Below, in pieces: positions 29,121 to 34,827 of a DNA stretch of 49,703 bases (position 1 is its first letter; the number at the start of each line of letters is the position of its first letter). Source of the DNA: Candidatus Saccharimonadales bacterium. GTDB taxonomy: Bacteria > Patescibacteriota > Saccharimonadia > Saccharimonadales > Saccharimonadaceae. The stretch covers positions 1 through 49,703 of the forward strand of contig JBATPJ010000050.1 of NCBI GenBank assembly GCA_049291395.1, read 5' to 3'. Under the pieces are notes generated by a model. The model did no database searches. It was not told the origin of the DNA and saw only the letters and a program-made list of their open reading frames with translations. The position numbers and the translations under genes are program-made.

Positions 29121-29609
29121 CTATTTCTTATCCTTATGATACCGTCGCCCGACGGCACCATGCACCATATACGTATCAATCAACGCAAAGACGAGCGCGG
29201 CGATGATGACATAGTTTTGCAAACGCGCCATGATCGTTAGCGTATCCCGCACGATCGGATTATCCGTCGGCAACACACTCGATAATGGCCCCAGGACAAA
29301 GAAAAGCCCGAGCAGCGCAAACCCCGTTGCCCCGATGATAGCCGCTCGCCGCGTCCGATACGTCGGGCCACCCGCCAGCAAGACAAGAGACGGTGTCATG
29401 ACGAGAAGGATACTGGCCAAACTTTCGTACGACATGCCCGGCAAAGTTAGCTCATAATTCTTCAGAGCGTCACCGAGATACCCACTGGCATATTGAGCCA
29501 GCACTGCCCCTGCGGCAAGTGACAATCCAAGCACACCAAATCGCCTCTGCGTCACAAAGGCGATCATGAACAGGATCACGGTGATAGCGATGATAACCAC
29601 TAGCGTCAT
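29121..29609 (-). CDS. hypothetical membrane protein
   Basis: 162 aa with 4-5 hydrophobic helices. It is immediately downstream of rimK and may be co-transcribed with it. Confidence 0.5.
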   Translation of the reverse strand: MTLVVIIAITVILFMIAFVTQRRFGVLGLSLAAGAVLAQYASGYLGDALKNYELTLPGMSYESLASILLVMTPSLVLLAGGPTYRTRRAAIIGATGFALLGLFFVLGPLSSVLPTDNPIVRDTLTIMARLQNYVIIAALVFALIDTYMVHGAVGRRYHKDKK

Positions 29610-29642
29610 ATCACTATCATACCACGAGGCACGACCAGAAAA

Positions 29643-30548
29643 TTACGCGCCGATTTTGTCTTTTTTGTGACTACGGCCAGCATTCATCTCGACGTAGTCG
29701 ATGATTTTGGAAGCCACGTCGCGACCAGTGATCAGCTCAGGCGTCTTGATACTAGCAGATGAGTTCACTTCGAGAACGAGAGGACCACGATCACTACGCA
29801 TCATGTCGACACCACACATCGTCAGACCCATGGCCTTTGCGGCCTTGAGCGCTGTTCGTTTCTCCTCGTCGGTCAATGTGACCGCAGCACCTTCACCGCC
29901 TTGATGGGTGTTGCTACGAAAATCGCCATCCAGACTTTGGCGCTTGATCCCAGCGACGACTCGGCCGCCGATCACCAGCACTCGTATGTCGGTTCCGGCC
30001 GATTCTTTGACAAATTCCTGGACGAGGAAGCTCACACTCTCGACATAAAACGCCTGCATTACAGCTTTGGCAGCTTTGGCTGTCTCGGCAAGCACCACGC
30101 CGTTACCGTGAGTACCGCTCGCGACTTTGATGATTAGCGGCGCACCACCAGCCAACTCGATGACATCTTCAAAACTCGCCGTCTCGCGGGCAAAGACAGT
30201 CTTCGGGATGGCCACGCCCGCCTTCGCAAGCACCTGGTAGGCGCGTAGTTTATCACGCGATCGATTGATCGCGATTGAGCTCGCTGTCGTGAAGCTCCCT
30301 TGGGCCTCAAACTGCCGCACCATCGCCGTACCGTACTTAGTGTACTTCTGTGCAATCCGTGGGATGATGGCATCGAATTTCTCGAGCGTCTCGCCCTTGT
30401 AGCGGATAACCGGCTTGTCTTTCTCGACAGCGACATAACACTTGGTATAACTAACGATCCTGACCTCGTGACCACGTGCGCGTGCTACTTCTTTGAGCCG
30501 CTTCGTCGTATAATTTGCTGAACCGTTCGACAGTATTGCGATCCTCAT
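29643..30548 (-). CDS. rimK: RimK-family ATP-grasp alpha-L-glutamate ligase
   Basis: 301 aa. Motifs MRIAILS..., PLIIKVASGTHGNGVVL, DIRVLVIGGRVV, FRSNTHQGG and CGVDMMRSDRGPLVLEVNSS. Confidence 0.85.
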   Translation of the reverse strand: MRIAILSNGSANYTTKRLKEVARARGHEVRIVSYTKCYVAVEKDKPVIRYKGETLEKFDAIIPRIAQKYTKYGTAMVRQFEAQGSFTTASSIAINRSRDKLRAYQVLAKAGVAIPKTVFARETASFEDVIELAGGAPLIIKVASGTHGNGVVLAETAKAAKAVMQAFYVESVSFLVQEFVKESAGTDIRVLVIGGRVVAGIKRQSLDGDFRSNTHQGGEGAAVTLTDEEKRTALKAAKAMGLTMCGVDMMRSDRGPLVLEVNSSASIKTPELITGRDVASKIIDYVEMNAGRSHKKDKIGA

Positions 30549-31069
30549 AATGATATATCTCCTCTTTCATTGGTGGCGTGGTATTTTTCAAAAAATGCTT
30601 CTGGGTCCCGCGATAGTTCATCGTTCAATGCCGTTGGCTTTTCCCTAGAGATCACACCTTTTGACACGTCGACAAGAAACTTCTTATTGAGCAGCGTACA
30701 TCCTATCAGAACAGGATAGGTGTTTAACGACCGATCTGCAAGCGTGAAAGAGCCTCGCAAGCGACGCCCCGCGATCACGATAGGGAGTCGTACGCGATAT
30801 CTCACCTGACGATGACCACTCGAGCTACGAACGAGATTGACAGTAAAAGATTTCGTGCGATGCTGCACCCCAGTATAATATGGCGAGCCTTTTGCAAATA
30901 ATACGAAATGTAAATAATGATCCTTATCGATAGATAACTCTGACGCCCATATCGACGACGAATCAGCTCCAGTGTCGATCTTGACCGGTACCTGTCTCAT
31001 GCCATCACTAGGAAACAACGCCTTGGCAGTTCTGCCGATAACAGTGAGTTGTTCTTGTCGTTCTTTCAT
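30545..31069 (-). CDS. retropepsin-like aspartic peptidase (the 'ATP-dependent zinc protease'/RimB-like family usually found with RimK)
   Basis: 174 aa. Motifs VPVKIDTGADSSS (D-T-G-A) and YPVLIGCTLLNKKFLVDVS. 4-nt overlaps with both neighbouring genes. Confidence 0.75.
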   Translation of the reverse strand: MKERQEQLTVIGRTAKALFPSDGMRQVPVKIDTGADSSSIWASELSIDKDHYLHFVLFAKGSPYYTGVQHRTKSFTVNLVRSSSGHRQVRYRVRLPIVIAGRRLRGSFTLADRSLNTYPVLIGCTLLNKKFLVDVSKGVISREKPTALNDELSRDPEAFFEKYHATNERGDISL

Positions 31070-32040
31070 AGCTTATTTAGATTATACTTCTTTAGCAATT
31101 TATCGACATACAATTTCGGCAAGTTATTGATTGGTTGCCCTTCAGACGGCATCATATGCAATCCGAAACTTGGCGAGGCATTGATCTCGAGCAAGTACCA
31201 TGTACGACTCGATGCATCGTACAGGAAATCCACCCCCGCAATAAATGCACCACACACGTTAGATATCTTTATCGCTTGATCTATCAGTGCCTCTGGTACT
31301 ATACCATAACACTCCACCGATCGCCCTCCGGTGCCGATATTCGCAGTGCCCACTACTTGAAAAATCTCCCCAATACCTGGGACATACGATAGTTGCGAGG
31401 CAGACAGGAATCGCATCACCGCATCAATATCGATCTTATTCATCTTTTTGGTGTAGGGTGTCTCACCGCGATCGGAGTTATGCATATTCTCATGCTCGAT
31501 AAGTTCTAGCACGGTGCTCTCGCCGTCGCCAACGACCCGGGCGGGCTCACGACTAACGACGCCGACACATTCATTATCTATCACCAACACCCTGAGATCA
31601 GTCCCATCAATCTGTTTTTGGAGTAGAATCTTTTCCGACTCACTACGCGAGAGTGCCGCTTCTACCGCTTGCTCAATTTGACGCGGCTTCGTGATGTTTG
31701 TCGTTACGCCGTTACCGTGTGCACCATCCACTGGTTTAATAACTATCCGTTTATTGACTTTTAAAAACTCTTCAGCCTGTGACACACTCTCAAAGGTCTC
31801 CGTCTCGGGAACGCTCGTCATACCGTGTTTCTTGACTACCTCATAGGTAAAATTTTTATTTTGTGCAATCGTAGAAAAAGACGCGTTTGCTATATCTGGG
31901 TTAGAACCCACGATAACACGCATCTTTCCGGCATAGTTAAAAACCATCGCTTGCGTCAAATTTAGTCTTACGATACTAACATCGATTCCTCGTTCGGTAA
32001 GCTCCTGGTAGATTGATTGCGCGGTGATCTTAAGATTCAT
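31066..32040 (-). CDS. second ATP-grasp ligase (cyanophycin-synthetase / glutathione-synthetase-like ATP-grasp domain)
   Basis: 324 aa. Motifs IVIKPVDGAHGNGV, DLRVLVIDNECVGVVSREPARVVGDG, ANIGTGG and GVDFLYDASSRTWYLLEINASPSFG. Confidence 0.75.
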   Translation of the reverse strand: MNLKITAQSIYQELTERGIDVSIVRLNLTQAMVFNYAGKMRVIVGSNPDIANASFSTIAQNKNFTYEVVKKHGMTSVPETETFESVSQAEEFLKVNKRIVIKPVDGAHGNGVTTNITKPRQIEQAVEAALSRSESEKILLQKQIDGTDLRVLVIDNECVGVVSREPARVVGDGESTVLELIEHENMHNSDRGETPYTKKMNKIDIDAVMRFLSASQLSYVPGIGEIFQVVGTANIGTGGRSVECYGIVPEALIDQAIKISNVCGAFIAGVDFLYDASSRTWYLLEINASPSFGLHMMPSEGQPINNLPKLYVDKLLKKYNLNKL

Positions 32041-32050
32041 AGGTAGATAC

Positions 32051-33622
32051 CTAGGCCGCTATCTCAAGCCCAAGACTTGAATTAAATTCACGGTGAATTG
32101 AATTCGTTGGGTCGGTCTTTGTCTTTGTCGAATTCATGAAGCTTACACGGTCATCGCGATGCGCCCACATGGACAGCACAGGGAGTACTTTACGACGACC
32201 ACGTACATAGGCAAGATCCTTGGCGAAGAACAATGCAGGAATTTCTGCCGGTAGATCACTGGGTATACTTCGCTTAATTCTAGAGAATGAGCCTGCCTGG
32301 ATCTTTTTTTCCTTTGCTATCTTATCCGCTGTTGGCTCTTCACCATCCTTAAGCTTCGTGAGCAAACCAAGACGCCATCCTATCTCCTGTGCTTCTCTCT
32401 GGGACCTATTTTCAAACTGCATCAAACCAAGATTTAGATGATGCCTCATGTTCGTTATTGTCCATTGGCTTGACCCGTCTGCTTTTATCGTGCCTTTCAT
32501 TGTCGCTTGCAGCAATGCACCTAGCCCCTCCTCGAACGTAAGATAGTCTGAGTTTTCACCTTCTAGCAGATCAGTATATATGCCAAAACCGGCAACAGGA
32601 GCATCTGTCTTCAACCCGTGGACAGTTCTTCCTGCATGGATGATAAACTCATGTATCGCAATGGCGAACAGATCATCAACCGTGTCAATAGTTTCGGCAC
32701 GTTCCGCTATCCCAACTCGTAATTCTAACGTCGATGGATCAAAGGAAATATTCGAGGCATCAGGCCTGGCGACGATACGTACTCCAGATGATCGGTCCGG
32801 GTCTATGATCGAAAGGAGACTTTCAAATATCGGAATGACGTCCCTTTTGTTATCAATAAATGGATCAATATTTTCAGCCATAGATCTCGGGAGGATGACA
32901 TGATCCCAATACTTCTGTATGACGTCACGAAACTCTTTGAAATGTTCCATGATTACTTCTCGCGTCCAATCGATAGTGAGCTGATCCATCGCTGGCAGTC
33001 GTTTATCACTTGGAGCAAAGCCTTCGACACATTGATCACCATAATTAAACCCATTGATCAGCTCGTCACGAATTATCTCGGCGCTAGGATGCAATTTCTT
33101 CGAATCAATAATTGCCCATATCTCGCCCCGGACCTCATCATGCTCGTCCTCCTGTATCTCACCATACAGTTCTTTATTCATTTCGCGATATATTTCAGCA
33201 GTAGCAGCGATATCTTCGATCGGTGCGCCATCCTCAACCTGACGATTGAGGCGACATGCTGTTTTGATAAAATACAATTCCGCCAGTCGAAAAGCAGCGG
33301 TAGAATACGTCACGTCTCGCTCTAATAGATCTTCAATCTCATCAGTGCGTCGTATCACTTCGTTGAGTGAAATAATCATCGTATCAACAGCTACTTCATC
33401 ATACAGCTTCTCCTTATATTGGAAGACAATGTAAGGTATCTCACCAACCACAAAACGGTCACGGGATGCTTCTCTCTTCGCTCCATCCGACTCGAAATAT
33501 TCATACGTTTGTACGCCAAGTGCGGGTGTTTTCTGCGGGTTCAATAGTACATCTAACGGAACTTTCCTCTCTCGAGTTAGTGCGGCTGGTTGTTCGGAGA
33601 CTGCTTCAGCATTTTGGGTCAT
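32051..33622 (-). CDS. DUF1704 / MATCAP-like metallocarboxypeptidase-family protein
   Basis: 523 aa. HEFIIH (HExxxH type, nt 32636-32653) is followed about 35 aa later by FEEGLGALLQ (QEGLA-like motif). Visibly AT-richer than flanking core genes. Confidence 0.6.
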   Translation of the reverse strand: MTQNAEAVSEQPAALTRERKVPLDVLLNPQKTPALGVQTYEYFESDGAKREASRDRFVVGEIPYIVFQYKEKLYDEVAVDTMIISLNEVIRRTDEIEDLLERDVTYSTAAFRLAELYFIKTACRLNRQVEDGAPIEDIAATAEIYREMNKELYGEIQEDEHDEVRGEIWAIIDSKKLHPSAEIIRDELINGFNYGDQCVEGFAPSDKRLPAMDQLTIDWTREVIMEHFKEFRDVIQKYWDHVILPRSMAENIDPFIDNKRDVIPIFESLLSIIDPDRSSGVRIVARPDASNISFDPSTLELRVGIAERAETIDTVDDLFAIAIHEFIIHAGRTVHGLKTDAPVAGFGIYTDLLEGENSDYLTFEEGLGALLQATMKGTIKADGSSQWTITNMRHHLNLGLMQFENRSQREAQEIGWRLGLLTKLKDGEEPTADKIAKEKKIQAGSFSRIKRSIPSDLPAEIPALFFAKDLAYVRGRRKVLPVLSMWAHRDDRVSFMNSTKTKTDPTNSIHREFNSSLGLEIAA

Positions 33623-33635
33623 AATATTATGATAT

Positions 33636-33664
33636 ATATTAACATATATGGACTATATGGTCAA
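33636..33664 (-). promoter_or_regulatory. sigma70-like promoter for the peptidase/ATP-grasp operon
   Basis: On the minus strand: TTGACC (33659-33664), a 17-nt spacer, then TAATAT (33636-33641). The -10 ends 13 nt before the ATG at 33622 and no SD is visible, so the leader is very short. Confidence 0.5.
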
Positions 33665-33717
33665 TACTAGTCGCGAACAACGCTCATTGTAAGGACCTAC
33701 TTGGCGTAGATAACATA

Positions 33718-34827
33718 TCAAAATATGCTTTTGGGTGATTTCTGAAAATCGGCTAGGATTTCCTTCTGCCTCTTACTCAATTTCGTCGGCGTATCGACGA
33801 CAATGCTCACGATATGCGCGCCTCGGGAGCTGCCGCGGAGATGTGGTACACCGTGACTGCTGAGTTTGAAGTCAGTGCCACTCTGCGTGCCGGCGGGGAC
33901 TTTCATACGCACCTCGCCATCGACAGTAGATACGTCGATCTCGGTGCCGAGTGCGGCGTCGACCATACTGACGTGCTCTTCACTCAGGATGAGGTCGCCT
34001 TCGCGGGTGAAATGCTTGTGTGGTTTGACACGGAGATTGACGTAGAGATCACCTTTGGCGCCACGAGCAATCGCTTCACCGCGTTCGCGCAGGCGAATCG
34101 TCGCACCATCGTCGACACCAGCTGGAACCTTGATCGTGATCTCTTGTTTGCGTCGCTCAGTACCACTGCCATGGCAGACAGTGCAGACCTTTTCAGGCAC
34201 CTTGCCTCGCCCGTGACAGGTCTCACAGGTAACGGCTTGCTGGATAGCGCCAAACATCGTGTTCATGACCCGCGTCCGCTGGCCAGCACCTTTGCAGGTC
34301 TCACAGGTTTTCATGTCGTAGCCTGGCTCGACTGTCGTGCCGTGACAGTGCGAACATTCATCATCGAGCGAGATTGATATCTTTTTCTCAGTACCGAAGA
34401 CCGCTTCTTCAAATGTCAAATCGAGGTGCGTCTCGACATCCCGGCCGCGTGCCGGCTGTCGTTGTTGCTGGCCGCCACCCCCGAAAAATGAGCCGAAGAT
34501 ATCTCCGAGACCACCATCACCAAAGTTAAACTCATAGCCTTGACCGTTGCCGCCAAAGCCCTGGAAGCCTTCAAACGGATTGCTACCGCCTGCACCGCCA
34601 CCAGCCGCGCCCCCGACACCAGCATGGCCGAATTGGTCGTAGCGCTGACGTTTTTGCTTGTCTTTGAGTACTTCGTAGGCTTCGTTGAGCTCTTTGAACT
34701 TCGCCTCATCACCGCCTTCTTTGTCCGGGTGATGTTTGACGGCCTGTTTGCGAAACGCCTTTTTGATCTCATCATCACTGGCGGTTTTGCCGATGCCTAA
34801 TATTTCGTAATAATCACGTTTTGTCAT
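33718..34827 (-). CDS. dnaJ: chaperone DnaJ
   Basis: J domain with HPD (KHHPDK), a G/F-rich linker and four CxxCxGxG zinc-finger motifs ([32 protein letters not shown]). Confidence 0.96.

What the first reader, a model, noticed from the sequence alone, without database searches (positions are those of the whole stretch)
29643..33664. Operon pairing two ATP-grasp amide ligases with two peptidases: a candidate C-terminal tail writer/eraser system
Seen in sequence: the minus-strand genes run in the order DUF1704/MATCAP-like HExxxH protein (HEFIIH + EEGLG), cyanophycin-synthetase-like ATP-grasp, D-T-G-A retropepsin-like peptidase, then RimK. The junctions are a 10-nt gap and two 4-nt overlaps. 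A TTGACC-N17-TAATAT promoter leaves an almost leaderless first gene. Established knowledge: RimK adds glutamates to the C-terminus of ribosomal protein S6. The retropepsin-like ('Zn_protease') family commonly accompanies RimK (RimB in Pseudomonas). MATCAP-family enzymes are carboxypeptidases that trim C-terminal residues of tubulin. Inference: with two ligases and two peptidases, the locus could add and remove amino-acid tails on one or more protein C-termini, or build and degrade a small peptide polymer. A streamlined genome retaining four such genes suggests an important target. The two upstream genes look AT-richer, so they may have been acquired together.
Basis: partly seen in the sequence, partly recalled or inferred. 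Interest (0 to 1): 0.65.

Follow-up and report, generated by a model that had tools for sequence, protein, structure and literature searches.

The report
RimK operon with MATCAP-like peptidase
A tiny-genome Saccharibacteria bacterium keeps one operon with two amino-acid ligases (RimK and a cyanophycin-synthetase-type enzyme) and two peptidases (RimB-like and a distant cousin of the tubulin-trimming enzyme MATCAP); it most likely adds and trims acidic tails on a protein end such as ribosomal protein S6, but no activity has been measured.

Summary
Four minus-strand genes (523, 324, 174 and 301 aa) are joined by a 10-nt gap and two ATGA overlaps.

- **Gene identities.** The 301-aa protein is a RimK-family ligase and the 174-aa protein a RimB-like retropepsin with D-T-G-A. 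The 324-aa protein is an intact ATP-grasp most like the cyanophycin synthetase G domain, and it is not Ddl. The 523-aa protein hits no library directly. Profile searches, hhalign (probability 100%) and a confident model whose top PDB matches are human MATCAP place it in MATCAP/DUF1704. HExxxH and EEG are invariant.
- **Conservation.** In 151 genomes of the same order, RimK is in 128, RimB-like in 122, the MATCAP-like gene in 29 and the second ligase in 19. Both accessories lie beside rimB-rimK. Extra ligases number 0-2 and are sometimes fused to RimB.
- **Reading.** The locus is an expanded rimBK system, not two writer/eraser pairs.
- **Target.** This genome's S6 ends in REEE, but across the order S6 tails do not track RimK presence, so the target is unproven.
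- **Acquisition.** Low GC of the three upstream genes is family-wide, so it does not show recent joint acquisition.

Verdict: a new variant of a known kind, of moderate to good interest.

The parts
32051..33622 (-). 523-aa divergent MATCAP/DUF1704-family (PF08014) putative zinc metallocarboxypeptidase ('M'). It has an N-terminal helical domain and a C-terminal catalytic domain (about aa 200-523).
   Evidence: - ORF; no direct Pfam, NCBIfam or PDB hit.
- 2 of 5 and 6 of 10 relatives pass the PF08014 cut-off.
- hhalign against the canonical PF08014-positive clade gives probability 100%, E = 1e-83.
- AF2 model: pLDDT 92.5.
- The C-terminal domain model has human MATCAP as its top three PDB matches, probability 0.94-0.97, TM 0.43-0.45.
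32636..32653 (-). HEFIIH (H324, E325, H329): the HExxxH zinc-binding and catalytic motif of M.
   Evidence: Invariant in 30 aligned homologues. It aligns with HElGVH of the canonical clade. The same motif type is described for TMCP1/MATCAP (PMC10499314).
32519..32533 (-). EEGLG (E364-G368), inside the invariant DYLTFEE block: the 'EEG' motif that supplies the presumed third metal ligand.
   Evidence: D359-E365 are invariant. An EEG motif is described as the third ligand in TMCPs (PMC10499314). It lies 39-40 residues after the HExxxH glutamate. In TMCP2 the two residues whose mutation inactivates the enzyme (E329, E364) are 35 apart; assigning them to the two motifs is my inference.
31066..32040 (-). 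324-aa stand-alone ATP-grasp ligase ('G2'), of the cyanophycin-synthetase G-domain, GshAB or NAGGN-synthetase type.
   Evidence: - TIGR02068 positions 160-472, E = 1.3e-54; GshAB 1.7e-39; TIGR03103 2.1e-38.
- The best PDB sequence hits are CphA1 chains.
- Catalytic and ATP-binding residues K102, H108, G109, R150, N234, G238, G239, D271, E285 and N287 are invariant in 66 homologues.
30545..31069 (-). 174-aa RimB-like retropepsin-type aspartic peptidase, with D-T-G-A at residues 32-35 (30976-30965).
   Evidence: PF05618 scores 51 bits against a cut-off of 27. The NF052261 RimB model scores 53 bits, below its equivalog cut-off of 200. There is no N-terminal hydrophobic signal (sequence).
29643..30548 (-). 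301-aa RimK-family alpha-L-glutamate ligase (RimK_N pre-ATP-grasp domain plus RimK ATP-grasp domain).
   Evidence: PF18030 119 bits; PF08443 194 bits; TIGR00768 244.5 bits (cut-off 143.4). NF007764 'S6--L-glutamate ligase' scores 319.5 bits, just under its cut-off of 331.
33636..33664 (-). Sigma-70-like consensus match TTGACC-N17-TAATAT upstream of M. The dnaJ stop codon is at 33718-33720, and the scan called no terminator between dnaJ and M.
   Evidence: The match is not above shuffle expectation. The RNA contig 33524-33684 crosses it.
29121..29609 (-). 162-aa membrane protein immediately downstream. It is weakly conserved in the same position in many relatives, and its membership of the module is uncertain.
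   Evidence: ORF; no Pfam or NCBIfam family. Positional homologues are seen in 19 loci. The RNA contig 29585-29804 crosses the rimK to downstream-gene spacer.

Best explanation
This is an expanded rimB-rimK locus, and all four products are predicted to be cytoplasmic.

- **RimK** uses ATP to add alpha-linked glutamates to a protein C-terminus that already ends in Glu. In this genome the obvious acceptor is ribosomal protein S6 (...AEKREEE).
- **The RimB-like retropepsin** cuts long poly-Glu tails, as Pseudomonas RimB does.
- **The 523-aa protein** is a divergent MATCAP/DUF1704 zinc carboxypeptidase (HEFIIH plus EEG). I propose that it trims the tail one residue at a time from the free end. That would cover short Glu tails, or non-Glu terminal residues, which an endopeptidase needing at least 5-6 consecutive Glu cannot handle.
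- **The 324-aa protein** is a catalytically intact ligase of the cyanophycin-synthetase G-domain type. This chemistry joins an amino acid to a peptide's C-terminal alpha-carboxylate. I propose that it adds a second kind of residue (a primer, cap or alternative tail) to the same substrate, working with RimB.

**Shown:** gene structure, family membership, intact catalytic motifs, conserved linkage to rimB-rimK, gene fusions and the Glu-ending S6.

**Inferred:** every activity, the substrate, and the division of labour between the two peptidases.
For: - **Family assignments:**
- **Linkage of M to rimB-rimK.**
  - 24 of 31 Saccharibacteria loci found by the DYLTFEE motif have RimK within the locus, usually as dnaJ-M-[0-2 ATP-grasp]-RimB-RimK.
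  - In a sample of 151 genomes of the order, 18 of 29 genomes with an M-like gene have it within 6 kb of rimK.
  - All six loci examined for the canonical PF08014-positive clade sit in the same slot.
- **Selection for proximity.** Gene order is permuted in L002/L045 and in L019/L033/L046 while the genes stay together.
- **Linkage of G2 to the core.** G2-like genes lie within 5 kb of rimK in all 12 genomes that have both. G2-RimB fusions occur in 7 of 71 homologues and in L032 and L067; L021 and L035 carry fusions of a different ATP-grasp to RimB.
- **More distant Patescibacteria.** M-like genes again sit beside ATP-grasp/retropepsin fusions in L053, L055 and L056, and beside a RimK-like ligase in L062.
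- **Acceptor.** S6 ends REEE. Only about 6 of about 850 ORFs in the genome end in EE (the count missed S6 itself), and none has an internal run of 5 or more Glu.
- **Known biochemistry.** RimB removes Glu from polyglutamylated RpsF and needs at least 5-6 contiguous Glu (PMC11957791). TMCP/MATCAP enzymes are carboxypeptidases that also deglutamylate (PMC10499314).
- **Expression.** Wastewater metatranscriptome contigs with no mismatches to the window cover parts of all four genes and span the G2/RimB junction.
Against: - No enzymatic, proteomic or genetic data exist for any of these proteins.
- Across the order, S6 ending in EE is not significantly commoner in RimK+ genomes (28/56) than in RimK- genomes (7/19; p = 0.43). 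About 36% of RimK+ genomes (20 of 56) have an S6 that does not end in Glu at all. S6 may therefore not be the target, or not the only one.
- M is found in only 19% and G2 in only 13% of the order, so neither is needed for the core function.
- Seven genomes have a G2-like gene but no RimK hit. Seven of the 31 motif-found M loci show no RimK within the fetched stretch (about 6 kb a side, less on short contigs).
- The structural match to MATCAP is specific but weak by E-value (0.036-0.12; TM 0.43-0.45).
- RNA evidence comes from assembled contigs that may include DNA.
Confidence: 0.5

Rival explanations
1. The module makes and recycles a free peptide or poly-amino acid rather than modifying a protein. 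RimK, stimulated by RimB, would polymerise free glutamate into poly-alpha-L-glutamate. G2 (with a GNAT in sister loci) would make or extend a small, possibly N-acetylated, peptide, as NAGGN synthetase or the CphA G domain do. M and RimB would degrade the products. The role could be storage, osmoprotection or glutamate buffering in a cell that cannot make most amino acids.
For: - RimK makes free poly-alpha-Glu, and RimB stimulates this (PMC11957791).
- G2's best matches are enzymes that act on free peptides: CphA1 G domain, GshAB and the TIGR03103 NAGGN synthetase.
- Sister loci insert a GNAT next to the MATCAP-like gene, echoing the GNAT-ATP-grasp fusion of TIGR03103.
- S6 tails do not track RimK presence.
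Against: - RimK here is nearly an equivalog of the S6 ligase (319.5 bits against 331), and S6 ends in EEE.
- The characterised MATCAP-family members act on protein tails.
- The GNAT's best match is RimI, a ribosomal-protein acetyltransferase, although it is below the cut-off.
- There is no exporter, cyanophycinase or Mur-ligase-type M domain in the operon.
Confidence: 0.25
2. The same add-and-trim chemistry is used, but the acceptor is a protein other than S6. In this lineage the RimK-type ligases would have a different or broader set of Glu-ending substrates. Candidates are another Glu-ending protein or the conserved downstream membrane protein, as proposed for Rlo-like systems.
For: - About 36% of RimK+ genomes in the order have an S6 that does not end in Glu.
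- A membrane protein is conserved just downstream.
- At least five other ORFs in this genome end in EE.
- Earlier notes from this scan report CPR loci in which a membrane protein with a Glu-ending tail accompanies the ligase and a MATCAP-like gene (unchecked here).
Against: - The 162-aa downstream protein here ends ...YHKDKK, not in Glu.
- There is no RloB-type 7TM/transglutaminase gene.
- S6 is the only -EEE terminus noticed in this genome.
Confidence: 0.17
3. M is merely a neighbour. It would be a housekeeping peptidase that sits between dnaJ and rimB by descent and has no functional tie to the ligases.
For: M is absent from about 80% of RimK+ genomes. It is sometimes encoded elsewhere, for example G509 at 328 kb, G494 at 15 kb and G305 at 38 kb from rimK. 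Seven motif-found loci lack RimK nearby.
Against: - Linkage survives gene-order permutation.
- It survives divergence so deep that Pfam no longer recognises the protein.
- It recurs in other Patescibacteria classes next to ATP-grasp/retropepsin fusions.
Confidence: 0.08

Closest known systems
Pseudomonas rimBK / rimABK system (RimK glutamate ligase, RimB retropepsin-like endopeptidase, RpsF/S6 target; PMC4741518, PMC7343187, PMC11957791)
   Same: - rimB lies immediately upstream of rimK and overlaps it.
- RimK has the RimK_N and RimK domains.
- RimB has a D-T-G catalytic motif and no signal peptide.
- S6 ends in Glu.
- Ligase-RimB fusions occur in relatives, as in the published RimBK hybrids.
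   Different: - There is no RimA (EAL) gene.
- Two extra enzymes are present: a MATCAP-family metallopeptidase and a CphA-G-type ligase.
- The fusions here join RimB to the extra ligases rather than to RimK.
- RimB is only 53 bits on the RimB equivalog model (cut-off 200).
- The host is a roughly 0.86-Mb Saccharibacteria genome.
Human MATCAP/TMCP1 and TMCP2 (KIAA0895L/KIAA0895), tubulin C-terminal carboxypeptidases (PDB 7Z5G, 7Z6S; PMC10499314)
   Same: - HExxxH plus a downstream EEG motif.
- The same fold by Foldseek (top three hits, probability 0.94-0.97).
- Pfam family PF08014 through intermediates.
- Genomic partnership with ATP-grasp ligases that write acidic C-terminal tails, which parallels TTL/TTLL.
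   Different: - About 13% identity over the structural alignment, and no direct sequence or Pfam hit.
- An extra N-terminal helical domain of about 200 aa.
- A bacterial, cytoplasmic protein, with no tubulin substrate.
- The activity is untested.
Cyanophycin synthetase CphA1 G domain (PDB 7LG5 and others) and related GshAB / NAGGN-synthetase ATP-grasp modules
   Same: It aligns over CphA1 residues 160-472 with all ATP-grasp catalytic motifs (VIKP, HGxG, TANxxTGG, GxD, ExN). That domain adds an amino acid to a peptide's C-terminal carboxylate.
   Different: - Only 324 aa, with no N domain and no Mur-ligase-like M domain.
- It scores 185.6 bits against the 850-bit cut-off.
- It is embedded in a rimBK operon and is often fused to RimB.
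- Its substrate is unknown.
rloABC operon of Pseudomonas aeruginosa (secreted retropepsin RloA, 7TM/inactive-transglutaminase RloB, ATP-grasp RloC; PMC12239564)
   Same: It pairs an ATP-grasp ligase with a retropepsin-like peptidase that cleaves poly-Glu. The physiological substrate is unknown.
   Different: There is no RloB-type gene and no signal peptide on the retropepsin. The ligase here is a true RimK-type enzyme with the RimK_N domain.
Bacterial DUF1704 proteins annotated 'flavohemoglobin expression-modulating QEGLA motif protein' (TIGR02421)
   Same: Canonical Saccharibacteria relatives of M match this model weakly (E = 1e-8 to 1e-14). They share HExxxH and the xEGLx motif.
   Different: All scores are far below the cut-off (33-51 bits against 338.65). 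The window protein gives no hit at all. No function has been tested for that family either.

Membership tests
RimK family alpha-L-glutamate ligase | RimK_N pre-ATP-grasp domain plus RimK ATP-grasp domain; passes the TIGR00768 subfamily cut-off | tested here: met
   PF18030 119.2 bits; PF08443 193.9 bits; TIGR00768 244.5 bits against 143.4.
RimK family alpha-L-glutamate ligase | Equivalog-level match to the 30S ribosomal protein S6--L-glutamate ligase (NF007764) | tested here: inconclusive
   319.5 bits against a cut-off of 331, over the full length 1-293.
RimK family alpha-L-glutamate ligase | An acceptor S6 whose encoded C-terminus ends in Glu(-Glu) | tested here: met
   S6 of this genome ends ...AEKREEE. 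Across the order the feature does not correlate with RimK presence.
RimK family alpha-L-glutamate ligase | Glutamate ligation to S6 demonstrated | not testable with these tools
   This needs biochemistry or intact-mass proteomics.
RimB / retropepsin-like aspartic peptidase (PF05618) | Pfam PF05618 domain with a catalytic Asp-Thr/Ser-Gly | tested here: met
   51 bits against a cut-off of 27. D32-T-G-A35 is present in the sequence.
RimB / retropepsin-like aspartic peptidase (PF05618) | Equivalog to Pseudomonas RimB (NF052261) | tested here: not met
   53.2 bits against a cut-off of 200. It is RimB-like by position (immediately upstream of and overlapping rimK), not a strict ortholog.
MATCAP / DUF1704 (PF08014) | Passes the Pfam gathering threshold | tested here: not met
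   The window protein gives no hit even at E <= 10.
MATCAP / DUF1704 (PF08014) | Homology to bona fide PF08014 members | tested here: met
   - 2 of 5 and 6 of 10 relatives pass the cut-off.
- The A1 profile retrieves PF08014-positive proteins at E = 1e-25 to 1e-37.
- hhalign against the PF08014-positive clade gives probability 100%, E = 1e-83 over 433 columns.
MATCAP / DUF1704 (PF08014) | HExxxH motif plus a downstream EEG third-ligand motif | tested here: met
   H324, E325, H329 and E364-E365-G366 are invariant or nearly so in 30 sequences. The motif definition comes from PMC10499314.
MATCAP / DUF1704 (PF08014) | MATCAP-like fold | tested here: inconclusive
   The C-terminal domain model (pLDDT 90.9) has 7z6s_C, 7z5g_A and 7z5g_B as its top three hits, with probability 0.94-0.97. 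However, E = 0.036-0.12 and TM = 0.43-0.45, and the next hit has probability 0.08. The full-length model did not retrieve MATCAP.
MATCAP / DUF1704 (PF08014) | C-terminal carboxypeptidase activity | not testable with these tools
   An enzyme assay is required.
Cyanophycin synthetase (CphA1) | Full N-G-M domain architecture; passes TIGR02068 | tested here: not met
   Only the G-domain region (model positions 160-472) is matched. The score is 185.6 bits against 850, and the protein is 324 aa against a model of 862 positions.
D-alanine--D-alanine ligase | Passes the Ddl models | tested here: not met
   38.4 bits against 243. The genome has a separate Ddl-like gene on C1 that scores 200.8 bits.
RloABC system | RloB (7TM plus inactive transglutaminase) in the operon, and a signal peptide on the retropepsin | tested here: not met
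   The neighbouring genes are dnaJ and a 162-aa membrane protein with no Pfam family. The N-terminus of the retropepsin, MKERQEQLTVIGR..., is not hydrophobic.

The most novel reading that the evidence does not exclude
The bacterial MATCAP/DUF1704 family is, at its root, the exopeptidase 'eraser' for C-terminal tails written by ATP-grasp ligases. In Saccharibacteria it would trim RimK-made (and second-ligase-made) tails on ribosomal protein S6. Together with a RimB endopeptidase and a variable set of ligases, that would give a small 'tail code' on the ribosome. The eukaryotic tubulin cycle (TTL/TTLL ligases against MATCAP/TMCP carboxypeptidases) would then descend from, or closely parallel, such a prokaryotic ligase-peptidase operon.
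Probability: 0.3. Interest if true: 0.8.

Novelty: new variant of a known kind. Interest (0 to 1): 0.55.

Why it matters
- **A core system in reduced genomes.** Genomes of 0.6-1.1 Mb in this order keep rimB-rimK in more than 80% of cases. Some add a MATCAP-type carboxypeptidase and further ligases.
- **First testable role for bacterial DUF1704.** If the metallopeptidase trims ligase-made tails, this would be the first functional context for these proteins.
- **Parallel with tubulin.** It would give a prokaryotic counterpart of the tubulin tyrosination and glutamylation cycle.
- **Translation control.** It would point to ribosome (S6) tail editing as a regulatory layer in ultra-small epibiotic bacteria. 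The locus sits directly behind dnaJ, which may link it to stress.
- **Literature.** No paper in the searchable library links MATCAP/DUF1704 to RimK or to ATP-grasp ligases. Other windows of this scan have repeatedly flagged the same theme.

Tried and rejected
1. **Direct searches with the 523-aa protein.** Pfam, NCBIfam and PDB sequence searches at E <= 10 gave nothing. Profiles of 5 and 30 sequences against PDB sequences also gave nothing.
2. **Foldseek with the full-length model.** No MATCAP hit appeared. The top match was 3u24, a Shewanella lipoprotein of unknown function (TM 0.30), followed by weak ACE/ACE2 matches. Only the C-terminal domain alone retrieved MATCAP.
3. **S6-tail correlation test.** There was no significant difference between RimK+ and RimK- genomes, or between M+ and M- genomes. 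This neither supports nor excludes S6.
4. **Horizontal co-acquisition of the AT-rich genes.** Rejected, because the same GC depression is seen in nearly all related loci.
5. **G2 as Ddl or as a cyanophycin synthetase.** Rejected.
Rejected here, because all catalytic motifs are intact and invariant.
7. **Reaching proteobacterial QEGLA proteins to test a general DUF1704/ATP-grasp link.** The last word-indexed search stayed inside Saccharibacteria, so this question is still open.
8. **Literature searches for a described link.** None was found.

Full report
**1. The observation**

The window carries four consecutive minus-strand ORFs: 33622-32051 (523 aa, called M here), 32040-31066 (324 aa, G2), 31069-30545 (174 aa) and 30548-29643 (301 aa).

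M ends in TAG, a 10-nt gap follows, then the G2 ATG. The other two junctions are ATGA overlaps, and the second is preceded by GAGGAG.

The TTGACC-N17-TAATAT match at 33664-33636 lies 13 nt before the ATG. It is one of 9 consensus matches in 5.1 kb, against 6.4 +/- 3.0 in shuffles. No terminator was predicted between dnaJ (stop codon 33718-33720) and M. A metatranscriptome contig (33524-33684) extends upstream of the -35 box. The promoter and the 'leaderless' start are therefore unproven, and read-through from dnaJ is possible.

**2. What the four proteins are**

- **RimK (301 aa).** It has the RimK_N and RimK domains. It passes TIGR00768 (244.5 bits against 143.4) and narrowly misses the S6--L-glutamate ligase equivalog (319.5 against 331).
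- **RimB-like (174 aa).** It is a PF05618 retropepsin-like peptidase (51 bits against 27) with D-T-G-A at residues 32-35. It scores only 53 bits on the RimB equivalog model (cut-off 200).
- **G2 (324 aa).**
  - It matches the G domain of cyanophycin synthetase (model positions 160-472, E = 1.3e-54). The ATP-grasp halves of GshAB and NAGGN synthetase come next. CphA1 chains are the best solved relatives.
  - It is a single domain and scores far below the CphA cut-off (185.6 against 850).
  - It is not Ddl: 38 bits and 28.9 bits against 243. A separate Ddl-like gene on contig C1 scores 200.8 bits.
  - Its ATP-grasp catalytic positions (K102, H108-G109, R150, N234, G238-G239, D271, E285, N287) are invariant in 66 homologues. 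It looks active.
- **M (523 aa).**
  - It has no direct hit in Pfam, NCBIfam or PDB sequences.
  - Its relatives are 27-37% identical. Two of five pass PF08014, now named MATCAP.
  - A profile search of 1.84 billion representatives finds 937 clusters. Six of ten sampled clusters pass PF08014.
  - hhalign of the window's clade against the canonical PF08014-positive Saccharibacteria clade gives probability 100% and E = 1e-83 over 433 columns. HEFIIH aligns on HElGVH, and FEEGLG on EEGla.
  - H324, E325, H329 and D359-E365 are invariant in 30 sequences.
  - The AF2 model is confident (pLDDT 92.5, pTM 0.89). The full-length model did not retrieve MATCAP. The C-terminal domain model (pLDDT 90.9) has human MATCAP chains as its top three PDB hits (probability 0.94-0.97, TM 0.43-0.45, E = 0.036-0.12), and the next hit has probability 0.08.
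  - The HExxxH plus EEG arrangement is the one described for TMCP1/MATCAP (PMC10499314).

M is therefore a divergent MATCAP/DUF1704 member. Its activity is inferred.

**3. Organism**

The genome is 855 kb in 54 contigs. All close loci are titled Candidatus Saccharibacteria. The locus is found with every sampled word present in wastewater, bioreactor and freshwater metagenomes from at least nine studies.

**4. Conservation and anatomy of the locus**

Gene context:
- Relatives 27-37% identical keep the same gene set. L003, L004 and L042 have dnaJ-M-G2-RimB-RimK. L002 and L045 have G2 before M.
- Of 31 Saccharibacteria loci found through the DYLTFEE motif, 24 have RimK within the locus. The usual layout is dnaJ-M-[0-2 extra ATP-grasp]-RimB-RimK-small membrane protein.
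- The extra ligases vary. G2-type and RimK/TTL-like types both occur.
- G2 is fused to RimB in L032. A different ATP-grasp is fused to RimB in L021 and L035. G2 is split, probably a pseudogene, in the oral taxon 488 lineage (L020, L022, L023).
- Seven of 71 G2 homologues are fusions of about 480-490 aa with PF05618.
- The canonical PF08014-positive clade occupies the same slot, often with a GNAT: dnaJ-[GNAT]-MATCAP-[ATP-grasp]-RimB-RimK. The GNAT's best match is RimI, below the cut-off.

Frequencies in 151 genomes of the order:

| Gene | Genomes |
|---|---|
| RimK | 128 |
| RimB-like (about 15 as fusions with a ligase) | 122 |
| M-like | 29 |
| G2-like | 19 |

- 18 of the 29 M-like genes lie within 6 kb of rimK.
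- All 12 genomes that have both G2 and RimK hold them within 5 kb.
- Only 4 genomes have M and G2 in one cluster.
- 7 genomes have a G2-like gene but no RimK hit.

In other Patescibacteria classes, M-like genes sometimes sit beside ATP-grasp/retropepsin fusions or RimK-like ligases (L053, L055, L056, L062) and sometimes do not.

The conclusion is that rimB-rimK is a near-universal core, and that M and G2 are independent optional accessories.

**5. The target**

S6 of this genome ends ...AEKREEE. Roughly 6 of about 850 ORFs end in EE (the approximate gene list missed S6 itself), and none has an internal run of five or more Glu.

Across the order, however, S6 ends in EE in 28/56 RimK+ genomes against 7/19 RimK- genomes (p = 0.43). 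About 36% of RimK+ genomes (20 of 56) have an S6 that does not end in Glu. S6 is thus the best candidate here, but comparative data do not establish it. Missing RimK calls in incomplete MAGs are a further caveat.

**6. Composition and expression**

- M, G2 and RimB have GC of 0.455-0.461, in the bottom 5% or so of long ORFs. RimK has 0.543 and the genome 0.522.
- The same direction holds in 27/28 (M), 10/11 (G2) and 26/26 (RimB) related loci. This is a property of these faster-evolving genes, not evidence of recent joint acquisition.
- Wastewater metatranscriptome contigs with no mismatches to the window cover parts of all four genes. One (31046-31422) spans the G2/RimB junction. DNA carry-over cannot be excluded.

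**7. Mechanism proposed**

- Pseudomonas RimB is an endopeptidase that removes Glu from polyglutamylated RpsF. It needs at least 5-6 contiguous Glu, and it stimulates poly-Glu synthesis by RimK. RimB-RimK hybrids exist (PMC11957791).
- MATCAP/TMCP enzymes remove C-terminal residues one at a time and also deglutamylate (PMC10499314).
- The CphA G domain adds an amino acid to a peptide's C-terminal carboxylate. This last point rests on established knowledge of the family; the homology is shown.

The most economical reading is a single tail-editing system:
1. RimK writes Glu tails.
2. RimB resets long tails.
3. M trims from the end: short tails, or non-Glu termini.
4. G2, which is physically coupled to RimB in fusions, adds a second residue type.

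Rivals are free-peptide metabolism and a non-S6 acceptor.

**8. Comparison and novelty**

The rimBK core is known. The Rlo system (PMC12239564) is a cousin, but it lacks RimK_N and has RloB and a secreted protease; none of that applies here.

The consistent recruitment of a MATCAP-family carboxypeptidase, and of a variable set of further ligases, into rimBK loci was not found in the searchable literature. NCBI already names some relatives 'tyrosine/phenylalanine carboxypeptidase domain-containing protein'. Other windows of this scan have noted the same theme. I file it as a new variant of a known kind.

Noticed in passing
order-level sample; window 29643-31069: rimB-rimK is close to a core gene pair in this order of Saccharibacteria. 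RimK (52-83% identical among full-length matches) is in 128 of 151 genomes and a RimB-like gene in 122 of 151, although the genomes are only 0.6-1.1 Mb. No paper in the library mentions RimK in Saccharibacteria.
   Followed up: partly
L071-L145 (S6 loci of 75 genomes): About 36% of RimK+ genomes (20 of 56) encode an S6 that does not end in Glu (for example ...DAR, ...DGA, ...KRR, ...DAK). Many tails are E/D-rich with a single non-acidic last residue (...DEK, ...EEA, ...KEG). It is unclear whether a peptidase exposes a Glu first or RimK has another acceptor.
   Followed up: partly
L020 7522-8504; L022 7510-8116; L023 7507-8501: In the oral taxon 488 lineage (including the complete genome CP128407.1) the G2-type ligase is broken into two ORFs of about 120 aa, while M, RimB and RimK stay intact. 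This is probably a pseudogene.
   Followed up: no
L032 5000-6490; L044 5983-7485: In these two loci the MATCAP-like gene is split into two ORFs, by a frameshift, a stop codon or an assembly error.
   Followed up: no
L021 4993-6393; L035 1336-2739; L032 7532-9031; L053 7411-10173; rows with open frames of 440-490 aa: ATP-grasp ligases fused to the RimB-like retropepsin domain are common: about 15 of 122 genomes in the order. One 921-aa protein in another Patescibacteria class combines ATPgrasp_ST, a retropepsin and ATP-grasp_3.
   Followed up: partly
L067 4346-4852; L069 4421-4933; L146 3908-4468; L147 4130-4468: Sister loci carry a small GNAT acetyltransferase next to the MATCAP-like gene. Its best NCBIfam match is RimI, the S18 acetyltransferase (33-49 bits, below the cut-off of 86). 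The window itself has no GNAT in the operon.
   Followed up: partly
window 33623-34827: The operon follows dnaJ in the same orientation in most relatives, with a 95-nt spacer here and no predicted terminator. Another first-reader note reports a CIRCE element before dnaJ. Heat-shock co-regulation of the tail-editing genes is possible but untested.
   Followed up: no
G426, G186, G448, G449, G484, G497, G500: Seven genomes have a G2-like ligase but no RimK hit at E <= 1e-40. The G2-type ligase may act alone or replace RimK there, or the assemblies may be incomplete.
   Followed up: no
window 32051-33622 (full-length model): The best PDB match of the full-length M model is 3u24, a Shewanella oneidensis 'putative lipoprotein of unknown function' (probability 0.97, TM 0.30). 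It may be a distant relative of the whole two-domain architecture.
   Followed up: no
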